Positions 891 to 57,869 of a DNA stretch of 64,000 nt are shown in pieces. Source of the DNA: Octopus vulgaris (Eukaryota); the NCBI GenBank assembly GCA_951406725.2, contig OX597835.1, positions 32,488,001 to 32,552,000 on the forward strand, read 5' to 3'. The notes under the pieces were generated by a model, which was not told where the DNA came from, ran no database searches, and saw only the letters and a program-made list of their open reading frames with translations. The first letter of the stretch is position 1. Each line of letters opens with the position of its first letter. Position numbers and translations under genes: made by a program.

Positions 891-1454
891 TTGTTTAAGG
901 AGGTGAGTTGGCAGAAGTGTTAGCACACTGGGCAAATGCTCGGCAGCATTTCGTCCATCTTCGCATTCTGAGTTCAAATTTCACTGAGGTCATCTTTGCC
1001 TTTCGTCCTTTTGGGGTTGATAAAATAAACCCCAGTTGATCACTGGGGTCGATGTAATTGACTTACTCCCTTCCATGAAATTGCTGGTCTTGTGCTAAAA
1101 TTTGAAACCGTGCTGTGATTGTTTCACTTGTAGAATCATAGTCTTCCCTAAACCATTTCCTAATCTCCACTGACATGAACAAAACCTAATCAGCCATTTC
1201 CTATCATCTTGTAACTTAGTAGTTCTGTGATAGACAAGTAGAACAAGAATAAGATTTAGAAATAAATACTGGTGTTGATTTGTTCAGCTAAATCCCTCAA
1301 ACTGGTGCCCCAGTTTGGTTACAGTCCAATGACTGAAACATGTCAAACATAAAAGATAAAACATGAGGTAAGCTCCTCTAAAGATGAATGTATATACAGC
1401 CAACATGTGGTAACATCTGAGTATGTATGTCTGTACCTAACCATGTAGTGGTTA

Positions 1455-1862
1455 CTCTTACTCTTTACTCTTTTACTTGTTTCAGTCATTTGACTGCGGC
1501 CATGCTGGAGCACTGCCTTAGTCGAGCAAATCAACCCCGGGACTTATTCTTTGTAAGCCCAGTACTTATTCTATCGGTCTATTTTGCCGAACTGCTAAGT
1601 GACGGAGACGTAAACACACCAGCATCGGTTGTCAAGCAATGCTAGGGGGACAAACACAGACACACAAACATATACACACACACTTATATATATATACATA
1701 TATACGACAGGCTTCTTTCAGTTTCCGTCTGCCAAATCCACTCACAAGGCATTGGTCGGCCCGGGGCTATAGCAGAAGACACTTGCCCAAGATGCCACGC
1801 AGTGGAACTGAACCTGGAACCATGTGGTTGGTTAGCAAGCTACTTACCACACAGCCACTCCT
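1455..1862 (-). mobile_element. SINE family A (about 400 bp, tRNA-like head, internal TA/TG microsatellite). Other copies near 2597-2966(+), 3018-3413(-), 15972-16365(+), 16381-16770(+), 18067-18455(+), 27382-27799(-), 30263-30640(+), 35561-35959(-), 44121-44525(+), 46005-46385(+), 50211-50631(-), 50840-51215(-), plus partials
   Basis: Recurrent head gagtggctgtgtggtaagtagcttgc..ggttcagtccc (A/B-box-like), ccttgggcaagtg core and gactgaaacaagtaaaagag tail. Confidence 0.93.
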
Positions 1863-2206
1863 TATTATTACTGAGGTCGACTTTGCCTTTCATCCTTTTG
1901 GGTGTTGGTAAAACAAGTACCAGTTGACCACTGGTACTTGATATAATTGACCTACACCCTGCCATGAAATTGCTAGCCTTGTGCCAATAGTCGAAACCAA
2001 TATATGTCTTTTGTGCTGTGATTATTTCACTTGTAGAATCATAGTCTTCCCTAAACCATTTCCCAATCGCCACTGACATGAACAAAACCTAATCAGCCAT
2101 TTCCTATCATCTGGTGCATTGCCCCAACCATTGACTAATTGTGCTCTATATCATGTTTCATCTCTAATATTGTTGTTATTGCTGCTGTTGTCTCTCTCTG
2201 TTTCAG

Positions 2207-2270
2207 TATTGCTATAGCGTTAGTCTGTAGCTTTTTACTTGGATTTGGTGATAGCATTTTTAATACTCAG
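2207..2270 (+). CDS. MFSD11: UNC93-like MFS transporter MFSD11, internal exon A (xIAIALVCSFLLGFGDSIFNTQ)
   Basis: Polypyrimidine tract + tttcAG acceptor and CAG|GTAAGA donor; 64 nt. The peptide matches, from memory, the MFSD11 motif CSFLLGLGDSCFNTQ. Confidence 0.88.
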
Positions 2271-4850
2271 GTAAGAACATTCTTTCAGTCATATTTATAA
2301 AAAGTGGGGAGCCTTTATTAACGTATTATTGTTGTTGTCTAGTCCAAGATAATCCTTATGCAGCAGACATTTGAGGCATTCCAGACACGAACATCCTGTT
2401 TTTCATTTAGACATGTATCTGAGACTACATTGATCATTTTCAATAGTGTATAATTTAAACAGGATCTCATATGAGGTTGTCCAGAAAAAAGTCACTGTAC
2501 AAAAAAGTAATACGAAAAATGGCCCCCTTTTTTTTTCCTAATGTTATAAGCAATTAAAGTAATAGAACAAAAGATATTTTAAATCAGTTAGGCATACGAG
2601 TAGCTGTGTGGTAAGTAGCTTGCGTACGAACCACATGGTTCTGAGTTCAGTCCCACTGCATGGCACCTTGGCCAAGTGTCTTCTACTGTAGCTTCGGGCT
2701 GACCAAAGCCTTGTGAGTGGATTTGGTAGACGGAAACTAAAAGAAGCCTGTCGTATATATGTGTGTGTGTCTGTTTGTCCCACCTCCAAATTCGTTTTAC
2801 AACCGAAACTGGTGTGTTTATGTCCCTGTAACTTAGCGGTTCAGCAAAAGAGACCGATAGAATAAGTACTAGGCTTACAAAGAATAAGTCCTGGGATCAG
2901 TTTGCTTGACTAAAGTCGGTGCTCCAGCATGGCCACAGTCAAATGACTGAAATGAGTAAAAGAGTAACGGACAGTACATGACTTATATGCAATTTCTATG
3001 TGATGGTATAACATATATACTCTTTACTCTTTTACTTGTTTCAGTCATTTGACTGCGGCCATGCTGGAGCACCGCCTTTTTTAGTCGAGCAAATCAACCC
3101 CAGGACTTATTCTTTGTAAGCCTAGTACTTATTCTATTGGTCTCTTTTGCTGAACCGCTAAGTAATGGGGATGTAAACACACCAGCATCTGTTGTCAAGC
3201 AATGCTAGGGGGACAAACAGACACACAAACACACACACACATATATATATATATACATGACAGGCTTCTTTCAGTTTCCGTCTACCAAATCCACTCACAA
3301 GGCTTTGGTCGGCCCGAGGCTATTGTAGAAGACACTTGCCCAAGGTGCCACGCAGTGGGACTGAACCCGGAACCGTGTGGTTGGTAAGCTAGCTACTTAC
3401 CACACAGCCACTCCAGTGAAAGAAACAAAAACTTTTATTGAATTTTCTTAAGCAAAGTAAGACAACGAAAACAAAAGAATTAAGTTGGTCATTTATTGAC
3501 AAAAACATGATATATCCAAACTGAAAACATCTTACATCGTCCTTCTCCTTATCATTTAATGTCTGCCTTTCATGTTGGTATGGGTTGGATGGTTTGACAG
3601 AAGCTGGCCAGACGTGAGCCCTGCACCAGCCTTCAGTGTCTGCTTTGGCATTGTGTTTACAGCTGAATGCCCTTCCAAATGCCAACCGCTTCAGAGGGTA
3701 GAGTGGATGCTTTTTACATGGCACCAGCAGGGTCACCAAGCAAGGCAAGGAATTTTTGAGAGGAGAAAGTGATCTTGTGTCAAATGATGAAAGATTTGAG
3801 TGTAACAGAGAGACAGGATCAGAAATATAGTCACCAGTATTAAAAACACTATATGCACGTGTGGAGGCGCAATAGACCAATGGTTAGGGCAGCGGACTCG
3901 CAGTCATACGATCGTGTTTTCGATTCCCAGACCGGGCGTTGTGAGTTTTTATTAAGCGAAAATACCTAAAGCTCCACGAGGCTCCAGTACGGGATGGTGG
4001 CGATCCCTGCTGTACTCTTTTGCTGCAACTTACTCTCATTCTTTCTTCTGTTGGCCTGCTTGCTTAGCCAGTGGGGTGGCGCCATTTGAAGGCTAAAACA
4101 ATGCAAAGCGCATTGTGACCAGCGATGTGTAGCAACATCTGATAGCCTGGTCGTTCACGGTGATCACGGTGATATTAACGTATTGCCACGGTACTAAGAC
4201 GAATATTCCAGCCAACACCACCAAGAAACTCTGCCACTGCCTTACAGTTCTCCCATTGAGCAAAGAATAAGTTAGAAAGCTGCAGATAGCATCAACCAAA
4301 TTTTCTTTGAGGTAGGTTACTAACAACATTCTGCTGGATTATTTTGATCACTGTCACTCACTGACTTTTTTTTTCTGCGACGTTTGGCTGTTCTTTCTAG
4401 CACGCCAGATAACCACTTAGAGCTGGCTCTGTATTACTACGCAGAGATCACCTTCGATTCTGCTATTATGCCTGTGCGAAGGTCACATCTATTTCTTTAA
4501 CTCCAGCAGATATATGATTCTTATCTTATCAAGTCGGAAGGTTCGAACCATGAAGTCAAATCCCGTAAAATTTATATTTAAAACATAGAACGAAACTAAT
4601 TTCTCCAGCAAAAGATTTAATCGAATGGAAAGTAAAGAGAAAAAGAAAAGTAAAACATAGGTGTAAGGGAAATAACTCTTACTAAGTTCAGGGGAGATAA
4701 CCTAAATATTGAATAAACCCCGGTTTGGCGGAATAATTAGTGTCGAACGGACACCTTACAGCATTTGGTTACGATCCTTTACGCTCCGAGCTCAAATCTC
4801 TTCAAGGTTGATTTTTGACATTTATTCTTCCATGCTCAGTAAAAAAAAAA

Positions 4851-5245
4851 GGATCTTTTCGGTTTGAACGGCAGTTTTTTAAAATAATTTCCACGTAACT
4901 AAACACTTTTAAACTTCGTATACTGGTAGAATGTGTTTATAAAACATTCTTTTTCTCTTCGCTTTATTGAGAAAATAGTTTGTAAGATATTTGTTGTTTT
5001 TTTTTCTTCAATTTCTGCAATTTCAACCAATCAATGACATCTATTGAGGTAAAAAAACATTCTGTGCTGTATGAATATATCCCTCGTTTAAGAAACAGAT
5101 TGGGTTTATTTACATTTGTGAAGCAAAAAAGATACCCTTCACCCCACCCCTAACCCTAAAACAGATTGAAATGCAATAGATCGATACTAGGGTCATAATT
5201 ATGGGTGACACCGCTAGAAAAAACTGCCGTTCAAACCGAAAAGAT
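4851..5245. mobile_element. MITE with about 27-bp terminal inverted repeats; partial inverted copy 52343-52735
   Basis: atcttttcggtttgaacggcagttttt ... aaaaactgccgttcaaaccgaaaagat. Confidence 0.85.
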
Positions 5246-6909
5246 AAAAAATAATTTAAAAGAACCAGTCATGTCCTGGATTCATATCGATTCTTTCCTT
5301 TCCAATTTTTTTTTTTGCTATGTAAGAAATCATCATTTGTTTGAACAATTTTTGCAACCTCAATTTGCCTAGGGATGCCATTGATGCGAAACAATAGTTA
5401 AGTACTATTGCTCATTACTTTTATATATGCAAGCACTTTCTCGCCGTTTACTCCTTCCCTGGATCATTATAAAAAAAGTGGGGGATTCAAAGACAGGAGA
5501 CTTCTAATATAGATATTGTTTTTTTAGCTCCAGAAGTGAGATTATTTGCTATTTCTACCTATTCCAGTGTCCACAGAGAGGCTCTCTCGTTGTTCTGTGT
5601 TAGTCAGCCTTGTTTCATATGTTCTTGGTAATATGAAGCTTTCATGTCCATAAGTTCCAAGGTACTCTGGTGATTGGAAAAATTAGGAATGTATATCATA
5701 TGAGACATTTGACGATATGCTGTGCTTGAGAAGACGTGTCAAGCCAAGTGACACCATAGCTGTGGCTGTTGTCAGTGTCACATAAATGGCACCTGTGTCG
5801 GTGATTTGTAAAAAGCACATTTCAAGTGTTGGGCCTCCACAGAGGCATTGTGGCCAATGCTGGTGTTGCGTCACTGGCACACTTGCTGGTGGCACATTAA
5901 AAGCACTGTTTGAGCGCTGGGCCACATGGAAGTAATGACAAATGACCAAGACCTTTAGCAATATGCTGTGCTTGAGTAGAAGACCCTTGAAGCCAAGCGA
6001 AATTATAGTTGTGGCAGATACTGGGGTCACACAACTGGCACCCGTGCCGGTGACACATAAAAGCCCCAGCACACTCTGTAAAGTAGTTTGTTTGTTCCTT
6101 CTCGAGCCATCCCTGCCTCATAGGTCCGGTTTCCTTGGCGCATAGGTTCCCCACCTAGATGGGATGCCAGTCCGTTGCAGGTGAGCTGCAAGATGCAGGA
6201 GGAAAGCGTGAGAGAAAGTTTTGGCGAAAGAGTCAGCGGAAGTTCACCCTTACCTTCTGCCGGAGCTGTGTGGAGCTTAGGTGTTTCGCTCATAAACACA
6301 CACATCACCCAGTCTGAGATTCGAACCCGCAAACCCTCAACTGCGAGTCCGCTGCTCTAACCACTAGACCATGTGCCTCCACATGGCCTATGCGTATGTG
6401 TAGATACATAAACATGTATATCATCATCTATATTTACTGTCCCTTTTCCATGCTGCTATGGGTTGGACATCTTGATTGGAACTGGCCAGGCCAGGGACTA
6501 CACCAGGTTCTATTTTGGCCTGATTTCTACAGTGAGATATAAAAAAGAAAATCATAGTTGCCAAAAATACCCTGCCATGAGATTGAACCTAAGGCTTCAT
6601 GACAATAAAATGAGCATCTCTAACCATCCAGCTCTACCTCTCTTCTTCCATCTGTAGACCAGTAATCCTGTCAGCGTTAGAAGTGGCTCTCTTTTTCTCC
6701 TTTCTTTCTTCCTCTCATGTCATCACTCCTTCTCCTCTATACCCCAATGTTCTTTTCAACTCCCTTGCTTCTCTCTACTCTCCACATCTCTTTTCCTACC
6801 TCTCCTCCTCCACCTCTCTCTGTCTCCTTTTCCTCTCACAACCTCTCTTCCTCTACTCTGTTGCTCCTCTCTAATCTCATCATCTCTCTCTTTCTCTCTT
6901 CCTTTCCAG

Positions 6910-6981
6910 ATATTCGCTATATTAGGAACTGTATTCCCAGAAGATGGAGCTCCTGCTTTTGCATTGTACAAGTTCGCTCAG
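6910..6981 (+). CDS. MFSD11: MFSD11 internal exon B (IFAILGTVFPEDGAPAFALYKFAQ)
   Basis: ctttccAG acceptor and CAG|GTAATT donor; 72 nt, phase 0-0, in frame with exon A. Resembles MFSD11 LLSILGFLYSEDSAPAFAIFKFVQ. Confidence 0.88.
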
Positions 6982-7017
6982 GTAATTCTTTCATTTCCAT
7001 TCATGGATGGTCGATTG

Positions 7018-9568: not shown

Positions 9569-9707
9569 TCAATGGCAGCGGCCATCTCCTTCATGTACAG
9601 TATAGCACTTCCACTCCAATGGCAGTTACTCATCATGGTCATCTTAGGCACATTTGCTTCCCTCTCGTTTTTCACACTGGAATGGACTATATTTGGAAGA
9701 CTACCTC
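9569..9707 (+). CDS. MFSD11: MFSD11 exon C, last transmembrane helices (SMAAAISFMYSIALPLQWQLLIMVILGTFASLSFFTLEWTIFGRLP)
   Basis: tctttcAG acceptor, in frame with exon B; resembles MFSD11 SICAAVAFFYS...HWQLLVMVIFGFFGTISFFTVEW. Strong C|GTAAGT donor at 9708 (phase 1); unspliced, the frame stops at 9832. Confidence 0.88.
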
Positions 9708-22261: not shown

Positions 22262-23178
22262 CAACAACTATTGTTTCAAATTTTGGCTCAGGGCCTACGA
22301 ATATACAAGAAGGGCAACATTTGAAGAGAGCACATAAAACTGGCAAAAATGCTTGCTCTCTGCCTTTACTACTACTACTACTACCACTAATGATAATAAT
22401 AATAATAATAATAATCATTAATAAATGGTAACTGGCTTCAAAAAATAGACATATGACTCGAAAATTGTTCCTTGTGTGCCAAAATTCACACAATTGACAT
22501 CTCATGGTTAATGTGTCTGCGTACTAGGTCTGCCTGTATTCGCTTTGTACAGTTTTTACCGATTCTAACTATACTGGGGCAACTGCTGATACTTAAGTTG
22601 GAATTTTCTTTTTTTTTTCATACGCATATTTTAATTTTTCAAAATTTCAGCTGTATTTATTATTTTTTCTTTTTTTTTTGTTTTCCAAATTTTTGACAAT
22701 ATTTTATATTTTGAGGAATTGTGGATCACTTAAACAGCAACAACAACAACATTAATATTATCGATATGATCAATAACTAGAAATTCTCAAAATGACGATT
22801 ATTGAATATAAAAGAAAATAATTAAAATATTAGAGGGAAAAAAAAATTCAGTGCCCTGCCCCCACAAAAAATATCAAAATTTTTTTTTTTTAAATAATAA
22901 TGAAATATTGTATCAAGACATTAATTGTACCCCTGCCCCTTTTTTAGTATTTTTGTTGTTTGTGTTGTGTTAATTCTTTTTCTTTTTTGTATTTTATTTT
23001 TGCATTGTTTTAAAAAATATTTTGGGGGATTCTTTGTTTGCTTAACTTCTGCATTCGATGTTATCAATTAATTTAATTTCTCTTTTTCTTTCGTTTCGAT
23101 AATTGTGAAATGTTTGTGTTTTTGTTTGTTTTTAATTTTATAATTATTTACTAATTATTTCTACATTTTCATGTAAAG

Positions 23179-23339
23179 TTAAAAAATACCATTGCTACTA
23201 CCACTGCCTCATCCACCACCACCACCACCTTCATCACTACCACCACCACTTCCTCCTCTTCCTCTTCCAACGACCCAGAATATATCCCACTAAGAAAAAT
23301 TGCTTGAAGTACAGCTACCATGTTATTCACCCTTTAAGG
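23179..23339 (+). CDS. Candidate downstream exon D (His-rich), phase 1 to phase 0
   Basis: Weak AAG acceptor after a T-rich tract and strong AGG|GTAAGA donor; 161 nt, open in the frame continuing exon C. Overlaps a (CAC)n low-complexity tract, so it may be coincidental. Confidence 0.2.
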
Positions 23340-23557
23340 GTAAGACCTCCTGACGTCAAAATATATTCTAAGGTTTTGGGTAGACACTCCATCACGATGC
23401 TTAACGCATACTTCTCTTTCCATCTGTCTTTCTGCCGCTCTTCTCTCTGCTTCTTTTATATTTCTCTGTACTTCTCTTCTCTATCCTCATCAGTTTTTCA
23501 TTCTTCTTCCCTGAAGCTTCCATTTTTGTCTTGACATAATGTTATGGACAAATTTAA

Positions 23558-28437: not shown

Positions 28438-28518
28438 AACAACAACATGAAGAACACGTTAAGTGGCCATAACATGATTAATGTGTTGTCACTTCAACAT
28501 GAGCAGTGTGGCAGGAAG
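28438..28518 (+). CDS. Candidate 81-nt exon E (NNNMKNTLSGHNMINVLSLQHEQCGRK in phase 0)
   Basis: ttttttgcttAG acceptor and AAG|GTAAGA donor; length divisible by 3; identical inverted copy at 44652-44732. Confidence 0.35.
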
Positions 28519-36474: not shown

Positions 36475-39400
36475 TCATCATCATCATCATCATCATCGTT
36501 TAACGTCCGTTTTCCGCGCTAGCACGGGTTGGACGGTTCGACCGGGGTCTAGGAAGCCAGGGGCTGCTCCAGGCTCCAGTCTGATCTGGCAGAGTTTCTA
36601 CGGCTGGATGCCCTTCCTAACGCCAACCACTCTGCGAGTGTAGTGGGTGCTTTTTACGTGCCACCTGCACAGGTGCCGGCATCGGTCACGATCGGTTGGA
36701 GCTTTTAACGTGCCAGCGGCACGGAAGCCAGCCAAGGCGGCGCTGGCAACGTTCAGATGGTCTTTTTATGTGCCATCAGCACAGGAGCCAGTCGGGGCGG
36801 CGCTGGCATCGGCCACGTTCGGATGGTGCTTTTTATGTGCCACCGGCACAGAAGCCAGTCGGGGCGGCGCTGGCATCGGCCACGTTCGGATAGTGCTTTT
36901 TATGTGCCACCAGCACAGGCATCACAACTACTATTTCCATTGATATTTATTTCGACGTTCATGTTCATGTACTTGACTCAACAGGTCTCCTCAAGCACAG
37001 CGGGACGTTCTGGGATCCGGGATACTTTGAATGAGCAGGAGCTATGCGGAACTGATGCAGGAAGCAGCCCGGGTCTTTGCAGTCACAGCATATCTCCAGA
37101 GATCTCGGTCCTTCGCCATTGCCTCAGTGAGGCCCAACGCTCTGAGGTCATGCTTGACTACCTCATCCCATATCTTTCTGGGTCTACCTCTCCCCCTGAT
37201 ACCTTCAACTGTTTGGGAATGGCACTTCTTCACACATCTCTCCTCATCCATCCGCAGCACATGACCATACCATCGCAAGCGTCGCTCTTGCACACCACAT
37301 CTGATGCTCACACTCTGTCGTGCGTGCACACTGACATTACACATCCAGCGGATCATGCTAGCTTCATTTCTTTCAAGTCTACGCATGTCCTCTGCAGTCA
37401 CAGCCCATGTTTCACTACCGTGAAGCATGGCAGTTCGCACACATGCATCATACAATCTACCTTTCGCTCTGAGGGAGAGACTCTTTGTCACCAGTAGGGG
37501 TAGGAGCTTTCTGAACTTTGCCCAGGCTATTCGTATTCTAGTGGTGATACTCTCTGTGCATCCACCTCCACTACTAACTTGGTCACCCAGGTAGCGGAAA
37601 CTATCAACTACTTTTAGTTTCTCTCCCTGGAGTGTGATGGAATCTGTTTTCTGAGTGTCTGTGGTGTCTATTGTCTCTGTGCATCTGCCGCACATGAAAG
37701 CTATCTTATCTGTTAATATCCCTTTAATGTTGCTGCACCTCTTGTGCGTCCATAGCTTACATTGGGTGCATCTTATGGAGTTTTTACCTACACCTTTCCT
37801 ACAGATCGAGCAGGGCCACCTGCCCGAGGGTGTGTGTGCTGAGTTCGCCTTTCTGCTTACTATAACTTTGGTCTTTGCTACATTTACTCTAAGGCCCTTT
37901 GATTCTAACCCTTGCTTCCACACCCGAAATTTCTTTTCTAGTTCCGGTAGTGATTCTGCTATGAGAGCCAGGTCATCAGCATAGAGGAGCTCCCAGGGGC
38001 ATCCTGTTTTGAATTCCTCTGTTATTGCCTGGAGGACTATGATGAATAAAAGGGGACTGAGAGCTGAGCCTTGGTGCACACCTACTTCTACCGGGAATTC
38101 TTCACTATATTCGTTGCCAATCCTAACCTTGCTGACAGCCTCTCTGTATAGAGCCTGTACAGCCCTTATTAGCCATTCGTCAATCTCCAGTTTCCACATT
38201 GACCACCAGATAAGGGAACGGGGAACCCTGTCAAAGGCTTTCTCCAAGTCCACAAAAGCTATGTAGAGGGGTTTATCTTTAGCTAGGTACTTCTCCTGCA
38301 GTTGTCGGACCAGGAATATAGCATCAGTGGTGCTTCTACCCGGCACAAAACCGAACTGCATTTCATCTAAGCAAATTCTCTCCCTAATGAGATGGGTTAT
38401 GACCCTCTCTGTGACCTTCATCACCTGATCCAACAGTTTTATACCCCTGTAGTTATTTCTATCTAGAGCATCACCTTTACCCTTGTAGCAGTTGACTATG
38501 GTGCTGCTACGCCAGTCATTGGGTATGACTCCATTATGAACTACCTGGTTTACAATGCAGGTGGCTAGGCCATAGCCAGCTGTTTTAAGCATCTCAGCAG
38601 TGATTCCTGATGGGCCGGGGGCTTTACCTGGTTTCATATCCTTAATTGCCTTAACTACTAGGGAGCTGTCTATTCGGGTAGCTGGTCCCTCTACTGGGTC
38701 AACATTTGGCAGGCTCTCCTCCTCCCATTCATTCTCCTCATTCAGCAGTCTTTCATAATGGCTTCTCCAAGCCTCTTTCTTTTCACTAACAGTAAAAGCA
38801 AGTGCCCCATCATCCATGCGGACACATTTCTCTCCTGTAACATCACTATTTTCTCTGACACACTGTCTGGCAATCCGAAATACCTCAGCTCTTTGGTCCT
38901 CACGTCGCTGGACATTGGCAAACTTCTTCTTTTCTGCTACATCTTTGGCTATGTATATCTGCCGCCCAGCCTCCCTTTTGGCTACCTGGTACAGTTCCCT
39001 GCTGCCCCCATCCCTCCAGGCTTTCCAGGCCTGTCTCTTTGCACTAATGGCTTTGTCTACTGCACTATTCCACCACCATGTAACTCTAGATATGGAAGGG
39101 ACTTTGCACCATCCACAGACTCGGTCTGTGGCACTCAGCAAGCTGTTCCGTAGGAATTCCCAGCTACCTTCTATGTCTGACGTCTGAAGCTCCTCCTCCC
39201 TCTCATCAAATTTCTTGATGAGTATGTCCCTAAATCTCTGACCATAGCTTCCAAATCCTTCTTTTCTGGATTGGTCTGTTTCTTGGAGTCCTTCTGGCCT
39301 CAAGCTTAAAGTCACTGATGATTAGTCTATGCTGAGGGATACATTCTTCACCCGGGAGGGTCCTTGTATTCAAGAGCGACCCTGTATCCCGCTGTGTGGT

Positions 39401-40930
39401 GAGGATGAAGTCTATTTGGCTAGCGGAGTCTCCTGACTGATAGGTTATAAGGTGGCAGTCAGGCTTCTTAAAGTTAATGTTGCAGATTAAAAGGTTACAT
39501 GCATCACAGAATTCCAGTAGTCTAGTTCCCTCATCATTTCTGGTGCCAATACCATGGCCACCGTGTACCCCAGTGAAGATACCCATTCCCGCCCAACATG
39601 CCCATTAAAATCTCCACCCACAAAGTTGAGGTCCTTGCCACTAGTCTTTGAAGTAGCCTGTAGAAGGGTATCATAAAAGTGGTCCTTCTGATCATTTGGT
39701 AGTCCCGCTTGTGGGGCATAGGCGGAGATAATCGTAGCTGTGCCACTCTGTAGGACCAACCTGAGCTTAAGCACTCTATCGCAAACCCTGACAACCTCTA
39801 TGACCTTATCCACCCATTTCTCCGCAAGGAAAATGCCTACACCTTCCATGTTACCTTGCCAGAAAAGTTTGTACCTAAGTGCCTTGCCTGTGAGGACCCT
39901 AGCTGAAGAACCTCTCCATCTTACCTCTTGTATGCAGCATACATCAACCTGTCTTCTCTCAAGCATCTCTACAATCTCACTAGACCTACCTTTCAATGTA
40001 CCAACATTGACAGTGCCAACTCTGAAAACTGGGAAGGAGATGTGGGGGGGGAGGGGAGCAATTCAGCGCCTGAAAAGAAGAGGGTTGTTGTGGTGGTGAT
40101 CGTTTTCGTGGCATTTTTCTTCTGATCTCTCTTCCGACCTGACAACATTCAAGCATTTGGGCATGTTAAGATTGTGGACCCTGCCGTGGGCAGGAGCTGG
40201 TGTTAGCAGCATTGTAGGCATAAGCATTAAGGTCATTGATGATGTAGATGTGGCAGAAAGGCTGAAATTCTTGGTGTTAGTAGATATTCTAAGCAAGCAT
40301 TATCGACACTGAGTAACGTAATTAGGCAGCGTAGCAGAAGCATGGATATTCTAGAGTTGGGTTGGTGGGGTTCCAGCTGAGAAAGGTTCCACCAGTGAGA
40401 AGAGAGGGAGAGAAAGTGGGGGGGGGTGCAGGTAATATAGGGAAGCACCAGTGGGGAGGGTTGGGGTAAGGAGGAACGATGACAGGTAGGGTTGGTGCAG
40501 GTTCGTAGGAATTAAAACGTAGGATATCACGAGTGGGGGAGGGGACTGGAAGGAGATAGCCAGTTGAGGCAGTGACAGATTTCAAAACAGGAGGAAACGT
40601 AAGATAAGTGGGACGGTTGATGAGCTGCGGCGCTAGCTGCTTGTCTTGGTGGGGGGAGGGGTAATACACAGTGAAAGCATGTGAGGAGGAGGGATAGACA
40701 CACGTAATGGTGGTGGGGGAGGGCATATCCGGTGTAGATGGTGTGAACAGTGTTCTCCGGTAGTGGTGGGGGTGGGAAAGGGCGGGCGCACCGCGAATGG
40801 CGAAGATCGAATTAAAGGATTGAAGAAAGTACCATAGAGAAACGAAGGAATGGCGATGTTAAGGGTAGCATAGAGAAACAAACGAATTAACTTTTATACC
40901 GGGGGGGGGGGGGGGGTAAAAGGATTAAAT
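36475..40930 (-). mobile_element. Near full-length RTE-clade LINE (APE + RT + PHD-like finger), frameshifted; (GAT)n tail; inserted in (TA)n
   Basis: APE N-terminus VGTVNVGTL..CIQEVRW (39487-40030) and GDFNGHVG; RT with KAPGPSG, DLEKAFD, GVHQGS and YADD (37042-39315); (CAT)n at 36475-36496. The 5' limit beyond about 40060 is uncertain. Confidence 0.93.
37042..40030 (-). pseudogene. RTE APE-RT polyprotein split over three ORFs (39487-39996, 39230-39586, 37042-39315)
   Basis: At least two frameshifts. A short deletion (HARQSVS|IRCGVQ) is visible against the sister fragment at about 12430-12490. Confidence 0.9.
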
Positions 40931-43969: not shown

Positions 43970-45240
43970 TGGCTTAAACCTTGCAATGAATTAGTGTCCT
44001 ATTCATCAACAATGTTGTAATCTTGGTGACTTATACCTCATGGAAAACTAGGTAACTGGCCTCATAAGTCATAGCAGTTAAGGGAAACAAAAAAACAAAT
44101 CCAATGAGAAATACAGCTACAGGCGCAGGAGTGGATGTGTGGTAAGTAGCTTGCTAACCAACCACATGGTTCCGGGTTCAGTCCCACTGCATGGCATCTT
44201 GGGCAAATGTCTTCTGCCAAAGCCTCGGGCCGACCAAAGCCTTGTGAGTGGATTTGGTAGACAGAAACTGGAAGAAGCCCATCGTATATATGTATGTATA
44301 AATTTATGTATGTATATGTTTGTGTGTCTGTGTTTGTCCCCCTAGCGTTGCTTGACAACTGGTGCTGGTGTGTTTACGTCCCCGTCACTTAGCGGTTCGG
44401 CAAAAGAGACCGATAGAAGTAAGTACTGCGCTTACAAAGAATAAGTCCCGGGGTCGATTTGCTCGACCAAAGGCGGTGCTCCAGCATGGCCACAATCAAA
44501 TGACTGAAACAAGTAAAAGAGAGAGAGAGTACACCATAGCTAGTATTGGTTTATTTCAATCCCTAAAGGAAAATATTAGAAAAAATTTAGACTGTAAAGA
44601 TTCAGGCTTAAATAACGAAAGGTATTTAATCAATGCCGAGACCATTCTTACCTTCCTGCCACACTGCTCATGTTGAAGTGACAACACATTAATCATGTTA
44701 TGGCCACTTAACGTGTTCTTCATGTTGTTGTTCTAAGCAAAAAAGTTAACATTGAATTCCAGGAATAACTCTCAGACTTACAAATAATGGTTTTATTTTT
44801 ATCCCTGTCATACTTTTAGCACATTTCAAAATTGAAAGTGGCTCATTGTAGAGTTTGCTTTCTATATAATCTCTCCTCATCCCTCTTTCTGTATGTGTAC
44901 ACATGTGCTTGTGTGTATACACACACACGCACATATGTGCACACATATATAAATACACACCTGCATACATGCACACATACACACCTGCATATACATACAT
45001 ATATATACACACACACATACATACACACCTGCATACATATATATATATACACACACATACATACACACCTGCATATACATATATATATATACATATACAC
45101 ACACATTCACACATAGTCATACACACACACACATATATACATAAGGGCCATAAGTTAAATCCTAATTTATATCTAACAATGATTTCAGTGCCAAATCACG
45201 TTTGACTTTGATAATGAAGAGACTAATGCATTTATCTAAA
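43970..45240 (-). repeat. Inverted-duplication segment vs about 28090-28790 (interrupted by the SINE at 44121-44525)
   Basis: Exact core around exon E with progressively diverged flanks. Confidence 0.85.
44652..44732 (-). other. Inverted identical copy of candidate exon E
   Basis: Reverse complement identical to 28438-28518, including both splice sites. Confidence 0.75.
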
Positions 45241-45279
45241 CTCGTGTAACACTCATACGCACAAAGATACACACACACA

Positions 45280-45331
<52 letters not shown>

Positions 45332-45496
45332 AAGAGAGGAAAAATACACACAAATTCATACTTTTATGCAGCTTACATAAGTTATCTAAAATGCATTTGA
45401 CACAAACTCACACACAATCATCATCATCAAAATGGACTTTTAATGATGATGATGTGTGTATCTATATAAGTGTCTATGTATATGTGTTTGCATATT

Positions 45497-47470: not shown

Positions 47471-47509
47471 TGCCTAACGGCATATATATATATATGTCTG
47501 TTTGTTTGT

Positions 47510-48445
47510 GTGTGTGTGTAAGAGTGTGCTTTGAAACATAGGTATGTGCATGAGTGCATGTATGTCAGTATGTATATGTTAGTAGTGTGTGCATGTGTAT
47601 ATTCCATCAAGTGATCAGATTCTTGGGAAGAAACAAGTGAGATTTCCTATAACAACACTTTTGTAGGGGAGATATAAAGATGAGAAGACAATAGGGAGAT
47701 CTCGTTAGTAAATGATGGAATAATTAACTTATTTAAGAGCAACGTTTTAATTAAATTTATTTCAGCTAAAAGGTATGTCTGTGATTTTAACAGCAACAAA
47801 TACACAGATATGTGAGATGAGAGAAAATGAGAACAGATACACTCACAGACATTTAGAAGTGTTTGTGCAAGTGTTTTTCTGGTTGTGCACTTCTTGTCTT
47901 CAATAATTATATATTTCCTCATCATTATCATCTTAGAATGTCTGTTTTCCATACTGGCATAATTTTGTCAGCTTCACAGGATCCAATGAGCTGAAGGATT
48001 GTATTGAGTGCCAATGTTTTCTTTTGACATGTTTTCCATAGCTCAATGCCTTTCCTAATACCAATCACTTCATAGAATACACTCAGTGGCTATTATTCTG
48101 TGGCACCAACACTAATGGGTTTGCCAAGTAATTCACAAGACAAACAAATTATAAAGGCCTCCACAACTGAGTAGAAATACATTAGAGGGATATAGATGTT
48201 CTTTATATCAGGTGTTGAGAGGTTAGAGTAATGTCAGGGGGACAGGAACAGGTATCTTGCTATAGCTAAGATACACATCTACCTCAGATTATATAAGAGT
48301 GGGTGGGGATTGCTGGAAAGAGAGGTAAAGGCAGTAATGATGAAGTGATATGGTGGACTTGCAAGGTAGAAAAGGTGAGCATAAATGAGAACTGAGACAT
48401 GGGTTTGAAAAGAGTAGGTGGGTTAGTTCATAAGAGGATATGAAG
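47510..48445 (-). repeat. Inverted-duplication segment, mostly near-identical to about 24860-25760
   Basis: ORF-track peptides 25356..25661(+) and 47647..47952(-) are almost identical; the DNA match extends on both sides. Confidence 0.9.
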
Positions 48446-48910
48446 AGAGTAACCGATGGTTCAAATGGAGGTGGAAGCAGACAAAGTTGTGGTTGATGGT
48501 AAATATAAGTTTTGGCATGGAAGAAGGTGGAAGGAATAGGAATGCAGAAGGGAGGAGGTGGTAAGTGGTAGTGAAGAGCAACAGCATAAAAAAACGGTAG
48601 ATAGATGAGAAGTAGGGGTGAGTGTTGGGAGGTAGTTAAGTACAAAGACAGGGATGGAAGTTAGAGGTACATAGGGGTGGATATAGCGTAGGTGAAAAAA
48701 AGGTGTAGGGAACCATTAATAGCAGATCTGAAAGGGTGTTAAAAATGATAGCAGATATGTGAGTGTGTTAAGGGTGATGTATAACACTCATACCATGTAA
48801 CACAAGGGCAAGGGTGGAGGTAACCAGTGCCACAAAAAAGAGGAGTAAACAGCTGGAAATTAAGTGGGAAAGGATGATATCAAGAACAACAACAATTATA
48901 ATAACGGTAA

Positions 48911-50688: not shown

Positions 50689-53076
50689 TTAACATAATTC
50701 CACTCTGCTGTAAGCATTGAGGGCCAGGTCAAGTCCAAGAATAATCCCCCCTCTCCTCCTCCTATCACTCTCAGAGGCTTCAGTAAAGAGGGAGTGGGCA
50801 CTGCACTTCTTTCTCTCACTAAACTATAAAGGATAAGACGTTTACTTGTTTCAGTTATTGGACTGTGGCCATGCTGGGGCACTGCCTAGAAGGGTTTAGA
50901 CAAATAAATCAAGCCCAGTACTTATTTTTCTTTAAAACTTCGTACTTATTTTATTGATCCTTCTTTGCTGAACTGCTAAGCTATGCCAACATAAACCAAC
51001 ACTGGTTGTCACACAGTTGCAGGGTACAGACACAAATAGAAAGACACACACACCCTCAACATGTTTCTTTCAGTTTCCCTCAACCAAATTCACTCACATG
51101 TCTTGGGTGAGACTGCGGCTATAGAGATAACACTTGCCAAAGTTTCCATACAGTGGGATTGAACCCAGAACCATGGGGTTGGGAAGAAAAGTTCTTACCA
51201 CACAGCCATGCTGCACCAGATAAAGAAAAACAACAAAACACAACAAACACAACAACAACCACAATTGCCTACAATCATCATCATCATCATTTAACATCTG
51301 CTTTTCATGCTAGCATGGGTTGGACAACTTGACTGAGGACTGGCGAACCAGATGGCTGCACCAGGCTCCAATCTGATCTGGCAGAGTTTCTACAGCTTGA
51401 TGCCCTTCCTAACGCCAACTACTCCAAGAGTGTAGTGGGTGCTTTTTACGTGCCACCGACACAGAAGCCAGTTTGCTGCTCTGGCAACAATCAAGCTCAG
51501 ATGGCGCACTTAATGCATGGATGCCAGTCATCGAATTTGATTTCGATTTTACTTGCCTCAACAGGTCTTCACAAGCAGAGTTTAGTGTCCAATGAAGGAA
51601 AGGTATGCATAAATGGGTTGGTTACACCCCTGGCATAGGCCACAAGAGAAAGTTACATGTGATCGATTGATACTGTCAAGTACAAACATGCAACTAAAAG
51701 ATCAATAATTGTTTTTGACAATAAATCAAGATATAGCTGATGTATTGATTAAATTTCATTATGGTTTCATTATTGATTAACCTTTATCCAACCAGCCTAT
51801 AATCAATGGATTTCAGGCCATGACCATCTCATTTCAAATAAGTACTAGTGGGTAAGTGAAAGACAATCATATCGACTCCAGTACTTGACTGGTACTTAAT
51901 TTATTGACCCTGAAAGGATGAAAGGCAAAGTTGACTTTGGCTGAATTTGAACTCAGAATATAATGACATGCGAAATACTGCTAAGCATTTCATCCAGCAT
52001 GCTAACATTTCTGCCAGCTTGCCGCCTTCTCTTGAGCTAAATAATGCAGTATTTTGTGTTCTAACACAACCTCCATGTTAATCTCTTTCTCTTTACTCTC
52101 TTTTACTTGTTTCAGTCATTTGACTGCGGCCATGCTGGAGCACCACCTTTAGTCAAGCAAATCGACCCCGGGATTTATTCTTTGTAAGCCTAGTACTTAT
52201 TCTATCGGTCAGTTTTGCCGAACCGCTAAGTAATGGGGACGTAAACAGACCAGCATCGGTTGTCAAGCAATGCTAGGGGGACAAAAACAGTGTTTCACTG
52301 GTACTTCATTTATCAACCCCAGAAGGATAAAAGGTAAAGTGGTGTCATATGAAATTGTCACCCATAATTATGACCCTAGTAGCGATCTATTGTATTTCAA
52401 TCTGTTTCACGGTTAGAGTTAGGATTAGGGTTAGGGGTGGGGGGAAAGTTATCTTTTTTTCTTTATAAATGTAAATAAACCCGATCTGTTTCTTAAACGA
52501 GGGACATATTCATACAGCACAGAATGCTTTTTAACTCAATAGATGTCACTGATTGGTTGAAATTGCAGAAATTGAAGAAAAAAAAACAACAAATATCTTA
52601 CAAACTATAGAATTTTCTCAATAAAGCCAAGAGAAAAAGATGTTTTATAAACACATTCTACCAGTATACGAAGTTTAAAATTTTTTAGTTACTTAGAACT
52701 TATGTTAAAAACTGCCATTCAAACCGAAAAGATCCGAAATTTTAACAATGACACTTCCTCTATAAGTAGACAATGTTCAAGAGACTGCTCATGAAAAAAC
52801 CCCATATAGCCAAGGGTACCCAGACTTCTTGGGCAGGTGCTTTTCCTTAGTTCCTAATTTCTTAATTACAGGTGTATATTCAGAGTAGGCCTGTTCTCTC
52901 ACACCTTGCTCAACACTCTCAACAATAATAATGTTAATAATAATAATGATAATTCTTTCAACTATGAGCTCAAGAAGCTGTCATCACCTTTGATGAGCTG
53001 TCATGAGCAAAGCAAAGGTTAGGTTATACAGCTGACTATTCGGTGAGTGGGGTGGTGGACATGAAATAAAAATTAC

Positions 53077-53149
53077 CTGAAAAAACTTGCACAGGTGAAA
53101 AAATTGTAGCTATGTCTTCTGTGAACATGGTTCATACAAGAGTTAATAC
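53077..53149 (-). pseudogene. MFSD11: Inverted, disrupted paralog of MFSD11 exon B (VLTLV*TMFTEDIATIFS/LCKFFQ)
   Basis: tttccAG acceptor and CAG|GTAAT donor retained; 73 nt (+1 frameshift); GGA>TGA at 53132-53134; 48/72 positions identical to exon B by manual alignment. Confidence 0.8.
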
Positions 53150-53154
53150 CTGGA

Positions 53155-53620
53155 AATGAAGAGAGAAAGAGAGATGGTGAAAGTAGAGAGGAGTGAGGGG
53201 GAAGTGAGAAAGAGAAGTGGTGAGAGTTGAGAGAAGTGGGGGGGGGGTAGAGGGGAAGAGAAATGGTGAGAGTAGAGAGAAGGGGGGAGGCAGAGAGAAA
53301 GAGAAATGGTGAGAGTTGAGAGAAGTGAGGGGGGGCAGAGAGAAAGAGAAATGGTGAGAGTAGAGAGGAGTGAGGGAGGCAGAGAGAAAGGGAGATGGTG
53401 AGAATAGAGAGAAGTGAGGATTGGGGGCAGAGAGGTGGTAAAAGTAGAGAGGGTTGACAGAGAGATGATGAGAGTACAAAGGAGTGAGAGAGGAGAGAGG
53501 AAGAGAGATGGTGAGAGTAGAGAAGAGCAAGTGAGGGGAGAGTAAGAAAGGTAGTGAGAGGAGTGGGAAGTGATGGAGTAGAGAGGAAGGGAGATAGTGA
53601 GAGTAGAGAAGAGCAAGGGA
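53155..53620. repeat. Purine-rich degenerate tandem repeat (expanded polypyrimidine tract of the pseudo-exon)
   Basis: Repeated atggtgagagtagagaggagtgagg units; homologous to the shorter CT-rich tract at 6690-6900. Confidence 0.8.
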
Positions 53621-56148
53621 GCTGAGAAGACCAATGGGGTAGAGGGTAGAGTTGGAGTAAAGACATTAGAGGGAGAAGGAAAAGAGAAGAGGAGACTCAT
53701 TTTGAAAGCCAATAGAATTACTGGTTTAAAGATGGAAGGATAGAGGTTTGGCTGGATGGTTAAAAGCATTTTTTTTTATTGTCATGAGGCTGTGGGTTCA
53801 ATCCCATGCATAGCATTTTTGGCAAGTATATTATTTTTTTTATATCCCAGGTGGATTCAGGACTTGTAATTAAAACTAACTAAAAAGAAATGGTTTGGAA
53901 TTCTGTTGGATGGATTACTCTTACTCTTTTACTTGTTTCAGTCATTTGACTGCAGCCATGCTGGAGCACTGCCTTTAGTCGAGCAAATCGACCCCGGGAC
54001 TTATTCTTTGTAAGCCCAGTACTTATTCTATCGGTCTCTTTTGCCGAACTGCCAAGTCACAGGGATGTAAACACACCAGCATTGGTTGTTAAACAATGTT
54101 GGGGGGACAAACACAGACACAAACATATACACACACGTACATATATATACATATATATGATGGGCTTCTTTCAGTTTTATATTTTAGTACATTTTCAACT
54201 TTTTCTCAGTATTTCCTCCCCCCACCCACACACACGCATATCATGTGATCATGTGATCAACCATTGACCAGCCTATTGAATGTTGTTATACATCGCTGGT
54301 CACAATGCATTTTGCATCGTTTTAGTTTTTGAAAGATGTCACTCTGCTGGCTTGGTATACAGGCCAAGATATGTGTGTGAGTGGTGCATTGTTGTACTCA
54401 AGAAGGTCTGCCCGCTACAGCAGAATCGAGAGCCTAAAACCGAGGTGCCATGGAAAAAGTGGTGCCAGTGCCGTGTAAAAAGCACCCAGTACACTCTGTA
54501 AACTGCTTGACATTGGGAAGGGCATCCAGCTGTAGAAACCAGGTCAAAACAGACTATGGACTCTTGGTGTGTCCCCTGGTCTTGCCAGTTCCTATCAAGC
54601 CATCAAACCCATGACAGCATGGAAAACAGATGTTAAATATTGATGATGAGGATGATGGTGATGATGATGATGGTGATGGTGATGGTGATGGTGATGGTGA
54701 TATGTGATGGGCTTCTTGCAAATGCTTGCTACCAAATCCACTTACGAGACTTCGATCAGCCTGACACTACAGGAAAAAGCACTTGCCCAAGGTGCTTGGC
54801 AGTGGAATGAACCTGAGAATGTACGGCTGGAAAGCAAGCTTGTATCTAATTACATGAGATTAATACACTAAGTAGACAATTTCAGACGGCTACAGAATCG
54901 TAGATATGCCATATTAATGCCTCGTTTCTTTGAAATAATATATATATATATATATTTAAGATGCAGAGGAAGAGGAAATCATCTTAGTAGTTGAGGAAGT
55001 GCTTACATATATAAATGTAATGAACAATAGTATTAACTATTGCGTTTTGTGCCAATGCCGTCCCTAGGCAAATGGAGGTTGGAAAGATTGTTGAAACAAA
55101 AAATAAACAAAAATAAAAATGATTTCTTACAGAAATATAAACAAGGCGAAAATTTTATGAAGGCACAGTCGATGTTATGAATCCTCGGACCTGTCTGGTG
55201 CTTTGTTTTACCGAGCATGGCAGAATAAAAGTGAAGATCAACCTCAGAAGGATTTGAACCCAGACGTAAAGGATCGTAACCAACTTCTTGTAAAGTTTTC
55301 ATTCTGCCAAAGCTATATTCGATATTTACATTGTCTCCCCTGAACTGTGTAAGAGTTATTTCCCTGAGAAATATATATATATATATATTTTTTTTTTTAA
55401 TGTTGGAGCTGGAACAGAAGAAATGAGTTGTGATATTTTGCTTTGGCTGTATTCTGGTAAAAATTTCCCTTTAAAAAATTTCAGGGCCACTCGCATCACC
55501 GCAACAAATCCCATCAAGTATGAGGGATTGTATAAGTTTATTGTTCGTGCAATAAGCTACCAAATTATTACATTCTCTCGATTTCCCGTGATTCAGAAAA
55601 TTATGTATATTCCAGGAGTCCTTGTTCCTTCTTCAGCACCACATCTGACCTTTTAACCATTCATGAACACATTGCTTAAAGAGCCGCCAAATATAGTGTG
55701 TAACACTTTATATATTAAACAGTTCCTCACCAGGGTTAATAGCTAACATACAACCCACGCAGGTGCATGTAGATATATGAACAAAAGTCCATCAACCATT
55801 GCCATTTATCATTCAGTCGTGTATATATGTGAGGCTGGCATTAAAGACATTTAAAGTTATCACCTTGTTTCATGTATTTCTTTATATCGTGTTCCAGTCA
55901 AATGATAATACAGCTTTCTGAGTAGAGTCACACGAGATGGAATACACCTCACCATCTATAAAACCATACACTACTTGAAATGAATGTAGTTTAAGGTACA
56001 TAACATGTCTAAATGAAAGACAGGATGTCCATATCTGGAATGCCTCGGAGGTCTGCTGTATAAGGATTATCTTGGACTAGACAACAACAATAATACGTTA
56101 ATAAAGGCTCCCCACTTTTTATAAATATGACTGAAAGAATGTTCTTAC

Positions 56149-56212
56149 CTGAGTATTAAAAATGCTATCACCAAATCCAAGTAAAAAGCTACAGACTAAC
56201 GCTACAGCAATA
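56149..56212 (-). pseudogene. MFSD11: Inverted paralog of MFSD11 exon A (xIAVALVCSFLLGFGDSIFNTQ)
   Basis: Reverse complement is 63/64 identical to 2207-2270 with intact splice sites; called pseudogenic because its next exon is disrupted. Confidence 0.8.
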
Positions 56213-56547
56213 CTGAAAGAGAGAGAGACAACAGCAGCAATAACAATAATATTAGAGATGAAACATGATATACAGCACAATTAGTCAATGGTTGGGGCAA
56301 TGCACCAGATGATAGGGAATGGTTGATTAGGTTTTGTTCATGTCAGTGGAGATTGGGAAATGGTTTAGGAAAGACTATGATTCTATAAGTGAAATAATCA
56401 CAGCACGAAAGACATATATTGGTTTCGACTATTGGCACAAGGCTAGCAGTTTCATGGCAGGGTGTAGGTCAATTATATCAAGTACCAGTGGTCAACTGGT
56501 ACTTATTTTATCAACACCCAAAAGGATGAAAGGCAAAGTCGACCTCA

Positions 56548-56607
<60 letters not shown>

Positions 56608-56623
56608 GTAATAATAATAATAA

Positions 56624-57496
56624 GGTTTTATCATAGCAGCTCAGGGTTTATCATAGCAGCTCAAGATCAATGCTTACCAACAAGGAACTACCAGGCCAAC
56701 ATATCAAAGAATGGCAGTACCCCAACATGTTGTGTATGTCAACAACAAAATGAAACCATTGATCATGTTGTCTCCAAGTGCAGTCTTCTAGTGCCTACAG
56801 AGTATCTCAACAGGCATGATAGAGCTGCACAATATATTCATTGGGTAATCTGCAAAAACCTGGATTTGCCCCATGAAAAAAACTGGTGGGAACACAAACC
56901 ACCTCCAGTGTTTGAAAATGACCACATCTCACCCCTCTGGAACTTCACCATTCAAACTGACAGAAAGATAGATGCAAATAGGCCAGACATCATATTGAAA
57001 GACTTCAAACAAAGAACATGCCCTCTCATTGATATGACTGTCCCAATCGATATAAATGTATCTGTCAAGACCTACCAAAAACTGAGCAAATATAAAGATC
57101 TTGAAATAGAAATCAGCAAAATGTGGAACCTGAAGACTAAAACAATACCTGTTGTCATAGGTGCCCTGGGAATGATAGCAAAAGGGGCTGATCGCTACCT
57201 AACTCAGATACCAGGAAACCCCAAAATGGCAGAAATTCAAAAGATAGTGCTCATGGGAACTGCTCATATCCTACGCAAAATACTTTCTATGTAATCTCAA
57301 GTTTTAAAACAAACATAATTACCGTATGTTTTTTTTTTTTAGACATTCACTAGAACAACACTAAAAAATAAAACCAAATATATGGCACACTAGGCATAAC
57401 AACAACATGAACTTCTAACCTGTTGTCTCTTGAGGTCTCTGAGTGAGACTTGGAGCCAACTTGTACAAATATAAAGCAAAAGTCAAACATAGAATG
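56624..57496 (+). mobile_element. 5'-truncated R4/Dong-like non-LTR retrotransposon (CCHC knuckle + restriction-like endonuclease) in (AAT)n
   Basis: CCVCQQQNETIDHVVSKC knuckle, RHD, NRPDI..IDMTVP..KYKDL and IPVVIGALG motifs (ORF 56791-57294); (AAT)n on both sides. Confidence 0.88.
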
Positions 57497-57869
57497 ATAA
57501 TAATAATAATAACCACTACATGGTAAGGTACAGACATACATACTCAGATGTTACCACATGTTGGTTGTATATACATTCATCTTTAGAGGAGCTTACCTCA
57601 TGTTTTATCTTTTATGTTTGTCATGTTTCAGTCATTGGACTGTGACCAAACAGGGGCACCAACATGAGGGATTTAGCTGAACAAATCAACACCAGTATTT
57701 ATTTCTAAATCTTGTTCTTGTTCTACTTGTCTATCACAGAACCACTAAGTTACAGGGCTGTAAACAAAGCAACACTGTTTGTTGTCAAGGGGTGATGAAG
57801 GGACAAAAACAAAGACACACACACACAAAGACACACACACACACACACGCATGCATGCACACATGTGCA

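What the first reader, a model, noticed from the sequence alone, without database searches (positions are those of the whole stretch)
1210..57753. The window is a ~56-kb tail-to-tail inverted duplication of the MFSD11 3' region
Seen: at least five colinear mirrored blocks (1210-2450/55965-57753; 4660-5450/54990-55370; 6530-6990/53070-53850; 24860-25760/47510-48445; 28090-28790/43970-45240), converging on an axis near 36 kb. The minus arm carries copies of exons A, B and E; no copy of exon C was found by eye. Inference: a convergent gene/pseudogene pair that can fold back at DNA or RNA level.
Basis: partly seen in the sequence, partly recalled or inferred. Interest (0 to 1): 0.75.

Follow-up and report, generated by a model that had tools for sequence, protein, structure and literature searches.

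The report
Decayed inverted MFSD11 copy in octopus
An octopus transporter gene (MFSD11) has an old, broken, mirror-image copy of itself lying just downstream, and small patches of the two are likely still being overwritten with each other's sequence by gene conversion, an ordinary process rather than a giant folding hairpin.

Summary
All five mirrored blocks are real. In the five blocks searched genome-wide, the mirror is by far the best match. It is not a 56-kb duplication of a 3' end. Only about 3 kb of the 56.5 kb aligns, with no single axis. The copy extends past the window and includes the 5' flank and coding exon 1. It is therefore a whole-gene inverted duplicate (70 kb parent, 25 kb copy) that has lost 9 of 12 core coding exons, with a stop and frameshift in exon B and 9 amino-acid changes in exon 1. 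Old blocks are 67-88% identical, but four are 94-96%, three with perfect runs of 113-257 bp. DNA contigs from two other organism labels bridge a copy junction, arguing against misassembly. They also keep four gene-versus-copy differences that are erased here, which points to recent gene conversion. Fold-back function is unsupported: annotated coding ends at 32.9 kb, 11 kb before the copy. It resembles human PMS2/PMS2CL, and this scan noted the same kind on other genomes. Ordinary.

The parts
2207..2271 (+). MFSD11 coding exon 10 ('A')
   Evidence: Ile at the site where 6 of 7 annotated proteins that cover it have Val
6911..6981 (+). MFSD11 coding exon 11 ('B')
9569..9707 (+). MFSD11 coding exon 12 ('C'); no copy on the minus arm
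23178..23340 (+). alternative 3' coding exon (O. sinensis isoforms X1, X3); not copied
32294..32308 (+). likely alternative terminal exon start giving the short tail of isoform X4; in the spacer
32734..32898 (+). terminal acidic-tail exon (O. sinensis X1/X2, O. bimaculoides X1); in the spacer, not copied
28438..28518 (+). 81-nt exon-like segment ('E') with AG/GT ends; not in any of 8 annotated proteins; inside a 113-bp perfect match to the copy
1210..2456 (+). left partner of converted block 1 (95-96%), with an arm-specific SINE-like insert at 1459-1862; perfect run 2215-2359
4633..5442 (+). left partner of two old intronic blocks (82% and 87% of ungapped columns)
6533..6999 (+). left partner of old block with exon B (78% intron, 67% exon)
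24861..25715 (+). left partner of converted intronic block (94.5%), perfect run of 257 bp ending at 25563
27878..28780 (+). left partner of innermost block (76-88% flanks, 96% core 28381-28567)
43974..45487 (-). copy of innermost block with 'E' copy (44652-44732); arm-specific SINE-like insert at 44127-44531
47484..48449 (-). copy of the intronic converted block
53056..53849 (-). copy of exon B region; exon copy (about 53079-53151) has an in-frame TGA and a frameshift
54993..55399 (-). copy of the two old intronic blocks
55961..57754 (-). copy of block 1 with exon A copy (56148-56212, one base different, Val), interrupted by an arm-specific retroelement fragment at about 56646-57511
36709..40096 (-). 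non-LTR retrotransposon (endonuclease, RT, PHD-like) in the spacer; not part of the duplication
57755..64000 (-). unmatched stretch of the copy where exons 2-9 are missing. The copy continues past the window end: coding exon 1 copy at L006:2077-2181 (84% identical, ATG and GT donor kept, 9 of 35 residues changed) and 5'-flank copy at L006:4477-4846. The parent exon 1 lies 40.1-40.2 kb upstream of the window start.

Best explanation
The minus arm is a broken, inverted, intron-containing copy of the whole octopus MFSD11 gene, likely made by one old duplication, and patches of it are likely kept near-identical to the gene by repeated gene conversion. SHOWN: the copy runs from the 5' flank (window coordinate 68.8 kb) to 44.0 kb, tail-to-tail with the gene. 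It keeps coding exons 1, 10 and 11 and the 'E' segment, lacks exons 2-9 and 12 and the annotated terminal exons, and has a stop and frameshift in exon 11. Identity between the arms is a mosaic of about 80% and about 95-100%. Other octopus samples carry the same copy junction. INFERRED: (1) one event (template switch or fold-back repair) copied about 70 kb, from promoter to about +29 kb, in reverse orientation about 15 kb downstream. (2) The copy lost constraint at or soon after birth, then shrank by at least two large deletions while each arm gained its own SINE-like and LINE pieces. (3) Ectopic homologous recombination between the arms has since overwritten sub-kilobase tracts several times, leaving nested tracts of different age. 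One tract ran from the copy into the gene's intron 10 (2323-2354) and differs among close relatives. The copy most likely has no function beyond being a donor and acceptor of sequence.
For: Whole-gene extent: exon 1 copy and 5' flank. A genome-wide search with P0003 gave 14 matches: 11 parent exon hits, 2 minus-strand copy hits (exons 1, 10) and 1 distant paralog. 14 of 19 minus-strand hits of at least 55 bits fall in one mirrored order. Decay: exon 11 copy has a stop and frameshift. The exon 1 copy has 9 non-synonymous and 7 synonymous codon changes, and O. bimaculoides agrees with the parent at 9 of 9 changed residues. Mosaic identity: K2P 0.13-0.30 in 13 old sub-blocks and 0.45 in exon B, against 0.04-0.06 in 4 young ones; heterogeneity chi-square 230, 13 df. 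Perfect runs of 257, 145 and 113 bp compare with a maximum of 77 in 2,000 permutations; within-block p = 1e-4, 0.004, 1e-4. Young tracts include intron and repeat-derived DNA. Cross-sample test: in organisms B and D the contig carrying left-arm alleles differs from the copy at 4 sites in 32 bp (56065, 56091, 56094, 56096). This genome's two arms are identical there, as is organism C's left-type contig. Four new point changes in 32 bp have Poisson p = 3e-6 to 1.5e-3 per window at the 0.3-1.5% divergence seen.
Against: No distant outgroup DNA was available, so the direction and age of most tracts are inferred. The B and D contigs are assigned to the left arm from their alleles and from where their alignment stops; their unaligned ends were not seen. 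B and D share the same variants and count as one observation. C is further from this genome in copy-specific DNA (7 differences in 474) than B and D (3 in about 1,140), yet shares the converted state, so the tract must be polymorphic or older than these splits, not a clean lineage event. Logan contigs can merge near-identical copies. Two of the three perfect cores sit on splice-bounded segments (A, E), which selection could also explain. The fourth young block (1210-1460) shows no clustering (p = 0.56). I picked the 14 blocks by eye, so their perfect order (Spearman -1) is not an independent test.
Confidence: 0.82

Rival explanations
1. Two or more separate duplications: an old inverted whole-gene copy, with later re-duplication of 0.2-1.2 kb pieces inserted into it, without ongoing recombination.
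For: Two clear identity classes, about 80% and about 95%.
Against: Young pieces sit exactly in register inside the old colinear frame with no extra copy left behind. They grade into perfect cores, and one tract edge differs between samples. Replacement in register is gene conversion by definition.
Confidence: 0.06
2. Functional fold-back RNA: a read-through MFSD11 transcript would pair exons A and E with their antisense copies, giving an ADAR substrate or siRNAs, and selection would keep the cores identical.
For: Two of three perfect cores cover exon A and the splice-bounded E segment. In such a duplex the A of the Ile codon (2214) would face a C (56205), and editing it would give the Val found in 6 of 7 related proteins. 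Cephalopods edit RNA heavily (recalled).
Against: The longest perfect run (257 bp) is in no annotated coding exon. Annotated coding ends at 32.9 kb with polyA-like signals at 33004 and 33161, 11 kb before the nearest copy block and 23 kb before exon A's copy. Any G/A difference between arms gives an A:C pair. The E segment has no unusual structure of its own (z -0.7 to +0.3 in 5 of 5 folds), and Rfam gives 0 matches.
Confidence: 0.05
3. Assembly artefact: a falsely duplicated or misjoined haplotype.
For: No read or contig spanning both arms was seen (one search covered only 55000-56545).
Against: The arms differ by about 20% in most blocks and carry different insertions, far beyond haplotype differences. 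Runs X5 and X8 each have a 287-nt contig with 1 difference that bridges copy-specific and homologous DNA. X6 covers 474 nt of copy-specific DNA. These show that the copy exists, not its orientation or distance from the gene.
Confidence: 0.02
4. The copy is a working short gene or spliced lncRNA (exon 1'-A'-B'-E') from its own copied promoter.
For: The ATG and all seven copied splice dinucleotides are intact, and the 5' flank is copied.
Against: Exon 1' (phase 0) spliced to A' reads out of frame into a stop after 7 codons. Exon 1' changes look neutral. Four of the seven splice sites lie in converted tracts.
Confidence: 0.05

Closest known systems
Human PMS2 / PMS2CL (PMC3398144, passages read)
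   Same: A gene with a nearby unprocessed pseudogene from an inverted duplication. The pseudogene has lost an exon by deletion, and recombination has homogenised the two unevenly.
   Different: PMS2CL copies only the 3' exons, lies about 0.7 Mb away in 100-kb duplicons and is transcribed. Here the whole gene was copied, the spacer is about 15 kb, only about 4 kb still aligns, and transcription is unknown.
Interlocus gene conversion between adjacent paralogs in Caenorhabditis (PMC3966223, passages read)
   Same: Old duplicates with perfect tracts inside roughly 77-82% identical sequence. Conversion happens in either orientation, is helped by proximity, and tracts are polymorphic among isolates.
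   Different: The pairs named in the passages lie under 2 kb apart where a distance is given. Here tracts are 16-55 kb apart and one partner is dead.
Primate Y-chromosome palindromes (listing and abstract start only; arm identity recalled)
   Same: Inverted arms exchanging sequence by conversion.
   Different: Those arms are long, continuous and nearly identical. Here the arms are 70 and 25 kb, 6% and 16% alignable, and mostly about 80% identical.
Hairpin or pseudogene-derived endo-siRNA loci (recalled, no call)
   Same: Inverted gene-derived sequence downstream of a gene could pair in one transcript.
   Different: No transcript across both arms is shown and the loops would be 16-54 kb.

Membership tests
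UNC-93/MFSD11 family (parent gene) | PF05978 domain and identity to annotated MFSD11 | tested here: met
   Three upstream exons over the Pfam cut-off. Exon C is 100% and 87% identical to O. sinensis and O. bimaculoides MFSD11. All 12 core coding exons map in order.
Duplicated (unprocessed) pseudogene | Carries intron and flank sequence of an intact parent gene | tested here: met
   Intronic and 5'-flank blocks in mirrored order.
Duplicated (unprocessed) pseudogene | Disabling lesions | tested here: met
   9 of 12 core coding exons have no copy. Stop and frameshift in the exon 11 copy; exon 1' to A' out of frame.
Duplicated (unprocessed) pseudogene | Loss of coding constraint | tested here: met
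   9 non-synonymous and 7 synonymous codon changes in 35 codons; all 9 residues changed on the copy side. Small sample, no formal dN/dS.
Duplicated (unprocessed) pseudogene | No functional product | tested here: inconclusive
   The protein search with the exon 1 copy found no candidate, but it also missed the parent, so it is insensitive. Transcription not established.
Interlocus gene conversion | Identical tracts longer than the surrounding divergence allows | tested here: met
   Runs of 257, 145 and 113 bp; 3 of 4 young blocks significant within block.
Interlocus gene conversion | Non-reciprocal transfer seen across samples | tested here: met
   Four differences kept in the left-type contigs of B and D and absent here and in C, while the copy sequence at those sites is the same in B, D and this genome. 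One tract only.
Interlocus gene conversion | Paralogs group by species against a distant outgroup | not testable with these tools
   No relatives of this genome are held.
Y-type genomic palindrome | Long continuous near-identical arms | tested here: not met
   3,981 of 70,320 and 3,914 of 24,872 bases align, 14% mean difference.
Hairpin RNA / ADAR duplex locus | One transcript spanning both arms | tested here: inconclusive
   One run guessed to be RNA was laid on 1.5 kb of the copy only. Annotated coding exons end at 32.9 kb.
Hairpin RNA / ADAR duplex locus | Editing or small RNAs on the paired tracts | not testable with these tools
   No raw RNA reads were offered.

The most novel reading that the evidence does not exclude
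A dead inverted gene copy acts as a long-range editing guide. Read-through MFSD11 RNA folds exon 10 onto its antisense copy 54 kb away, ADAR edits the A at the A:C mismatch and restores the ancestral Val, and gene conversion keeps the guide matched to the exon.
Probability: 0.04. Interest if true: 0.7.

Novelty: new member of a known kind. Interest (0 to 1): 0.2.

Why it matters
As it stands it is a clean invertebrate example of a gene and its inverted pseudogene still exchanging sequence across 16-55 kb after about 20% divergence, with one tract that differs among close relatives. Practically, reads and variant or RNA-editing calls in MFSD11 exon 10 can be confounded by the copy: the Ile/Val difference is an A/G difference between paralogs and would look like A-to-I recoding. 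A crossover in the converted tracts could invert the gene's 3' end. It would matter much more only if a read-through duplex with editing were shown.

Tried and rejected
miRNA-like hairpin in segment E: 5 of 5 folds were no better than shuffles. Rfam over the window: 0 matches. Copies of exons 2-9, 12 or the terminal exons in 100 kb either side: none; none genome-wide among 20 candidates scored. Expression: no RNA holder listed on record. In one run guessed to be RNA (X11), the one listed contig over the low-copy duplicated part of 55000-56545 carried 7 of 7 left-arm alleles; its other listed contigs were short pieces on repeats. Lack of cover is not evidence of silence. RNA exon joins downstream of exon C were not obtained, so whether E is spliced stays open. 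Protein search with the exon 1 copy: no candidate, insensitive. Pfam scan of 117 of 202 long open frames in and around the window found only MFSD11 exon C and transposon domains, no neighbouring gene; short exons would be missed. Apparent shared variants in merged contigs at 56097-56349 in B and D were not used, because assembly can merge near-identical copies. Literature: 'MFSD11'+'octopus' 1 irrelevant paper; 'gene conversion'+'octopus'+'inverted duplication' 1 listed, irrelevant; 'octopus'+'genome'+'ectopic gene conversion' 1 irrelevant; 'MFSD11'+'pseudogene' 14 papers, 8 listed, none on this locus by title or abstract start. Earlier scan notes near this place: 0. No supplements were read.
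Full report
SETTING. The window is G000:C22:32488001-32552000 in a 2.8-Gb genome. Its exon C matches annotated Octopus MFSD11 proteins at 100% and 87%. I fetched 100 kb on each side. Coordinates below are window coordinates, negative for upstream and above 64000 for downstream.

CHECK OF THE OBSERVATION. Self-BLAST found all five named mirror blocks. The window is full of SINE-like repeats (1,932 self hits), so I masked repeats seen four or more times in 264 kb and searched five blocks against the whole genome. In each the mirror was the best non-self hit by a wide margin. The blocks are real paralogy. Their midpoints are 29.2-30.2 kb for the outer blocks and 36.4-36.7 kb for the inner ones, so there is no single axis. 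About 15 kb between 28.8 and 44.0 kb has no partner. It holds two of the gene's terminal exons and a non-LTR retrotransposon with endonuclease and RT domains.

WHAT IT IS. tblastn of eight annotated Octopus MFSD11 proteins placed 12 core coding exons from -40.2 kb to +9.7 kb, and alternative 3' exons at 23.2, 32.3 and 32.7 kb. It also found a minus-strand copy of exon 1 at 66077-66181, just past the window. The 5' flank (-41.5 kb to 68.8 kb) and two pieces of intron 1 are mirrored too. Of 76 hits, 19 were minus-strand hits of at least 55 bits. Of these, 14 fall in one mirrored order, 1 reflects a small tandem duplication at 983-1212 and 4 are off-diagonal (treated as repeats and dropped). The duplicated unit is the whole gene from promoter to about +29 kb (70 kb), and the copy now spans 25 kb. 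Exons 2-9 and 12 and the 23.2 and 32.7 kb terminal exons have no copy in the 264 kb, and a genome-wide protein search found only exons 1 and 10 on the minus strand.

THE COPY IS DECAYED. The exon 11 copy is 67% identical and has an in-frame stop and a frameshift. The exon 1 copy has 17 base changes, in 9 non-synonymous and 7 synonymous codons, and O. bimaculoides matches the parent at all 9 residues. This fits constraint lost on the copy alone, on a small sample. Exon 1' spliced to exon A' would read out of frame. Each arm has private insertions: SINE-like elements at 1459-1862 and 44127-44531, and a retroelement piece at about 56646-57511. The SINE label is from their copy number and my recall of octopus repeats, not from a library match.

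PATCHY HOMOGENISATION. Of 18 sub-blocks (two of them nested), 13 have K2P distances of 0.13-0.30, exon B has 0.45, and 4 have 0.04-0.06. The sub-block edges were set by me from the alignments. Perfect runs of 257 bp (intron, ending 25563), 145 bp (exon A and downstream intron) and 113 bp (segment E) far exceed the permutation maximum of 77. They are significant within their own blocks (p = 1e-4, 0.004, 1e-4), while the fourth young block is not (p = 0.56). Nested young cores inside older shoulders, in exact register, are the pattern expected from repeated gene conversion (PMC3966223, passages).

INDEPENDENT SAMPLES. I laid contigs of four public runs on 55000-56545. Runs X5 (organism B) and X8 (organism D) each hold a 287-nt contig with one difference that bridges copy-specific and homologous DNA. 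X6 (organism C) covers 474 nt of copy-specific DNA. The copy is therefore not an artefact of this assembly, though its orientation and distance were not tested by reads. In X5 and X8 a second contig carries left-arm alleles at 56033, 56047 and 56048, and also differs from the copy at 56065, 56091, 56094 and 56096. At those four sites this genome's two arms are identical, and X6's left-type contig matches them. Four new mutations in 32 bp are unlikely (p = 3e-6 to 1.5e-3 per window). The simplest reading is that old gene-versus-copy differences persist in B and D and were overwritten, copy into gene intron 10, in the haplotypes of this genome and C. Caveats: B and D are one observation, arm assignment is inferred, and C is further from this genome in copy-specific DNA than B and D are, so the tract is probably polymorphic rather than lineage-fixed.

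FOLD-BACK. Cruciform extrusion needs long near-perfect arms with a very short spacer (established knowledge), which is not the case here. RNA pairing needs a transcript across both arms, but annotated coding ends at 32.9 kb with polyA-like signals at 33004 and 33161. The one run guessed to be RNA gave only a left-allele contig over the low-copy duplicated part, which is not evidence either way. Segment E does not fold better than shuffles and Rfam has no match. One detail keeps the idea alive: the gene has Ile (A at 2214) where the copy and 6 of 7 covering proteins have Val, so a duplex would hold an A:C mismatch there. I give that 4%.

COMPARISON AND VERDICT. It works like human PMS2/PMS2CL, an inverted unprocessed pseudogene with exon loss and uneven homogenisation (PMC3398144, passages), and it meets the tested features of a duplicated pseudogene under interlocus conversion. 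It fails the test for a Y-type palindrome. Four searches found no paper on this locus in the held library. Searches were seen as listings and abstract starts only. The scan's own notes list similar cases in other genomes, unchecked AI notes that I did not test. Verdict: real, partly mis-described, a new member of a known kind. Interest 0.2.

Noticed in passing
window 37045-40062 (-): Non-LTR retrotransposon with an endonuclease frame, a 759-aa RT frame and a weak PHD-finger match inside the RT frame.
   Followed up: partly
window 10048-11453: 24-bp minisatellite, 58.6 copies at 93% match, 340 bp downstream of exon C.
   Followed up: no
window 9569-32900: Annotated Octopus MFSD11 isoforms have six different C-termini after exon C (Thr/Ser-rich, His-rich plus acidic, acidic, and short ones); exon C can also read through to a stop at about 9830.
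   Followed up: partly
window 983-1212 vs 1868-2113: Small tandem duplication in intron 9 that truncates the SINE-like sequence whose mirror copy continues past 57754.
   Followed up: partly
window 2214 / 56205: A/G (Ile/Val) difference between exon 10 and its copy would mimic an A-to-I recoding site if reads mis-map.
   Followed up: partly
window 45625-45936, 60351-60553, 61012-61401, 62025-62397; L016:8671-9168 (97.6%); L013:3025-3906 (99.5%): Several short self-palindromic elements, probably MITE-like; the 882-bp one is almost perfect.
   Followed up: no
L006:7249-8135 (-): Mariner-type transposase remnant (HTH_48, Transposase_1), also present upstream in MFSD11 intron 1 at 90% identity.
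   Followed up: no
window 18551-19533: Tandem array of about 202-bp SINE-derived units.
   Followed up: no
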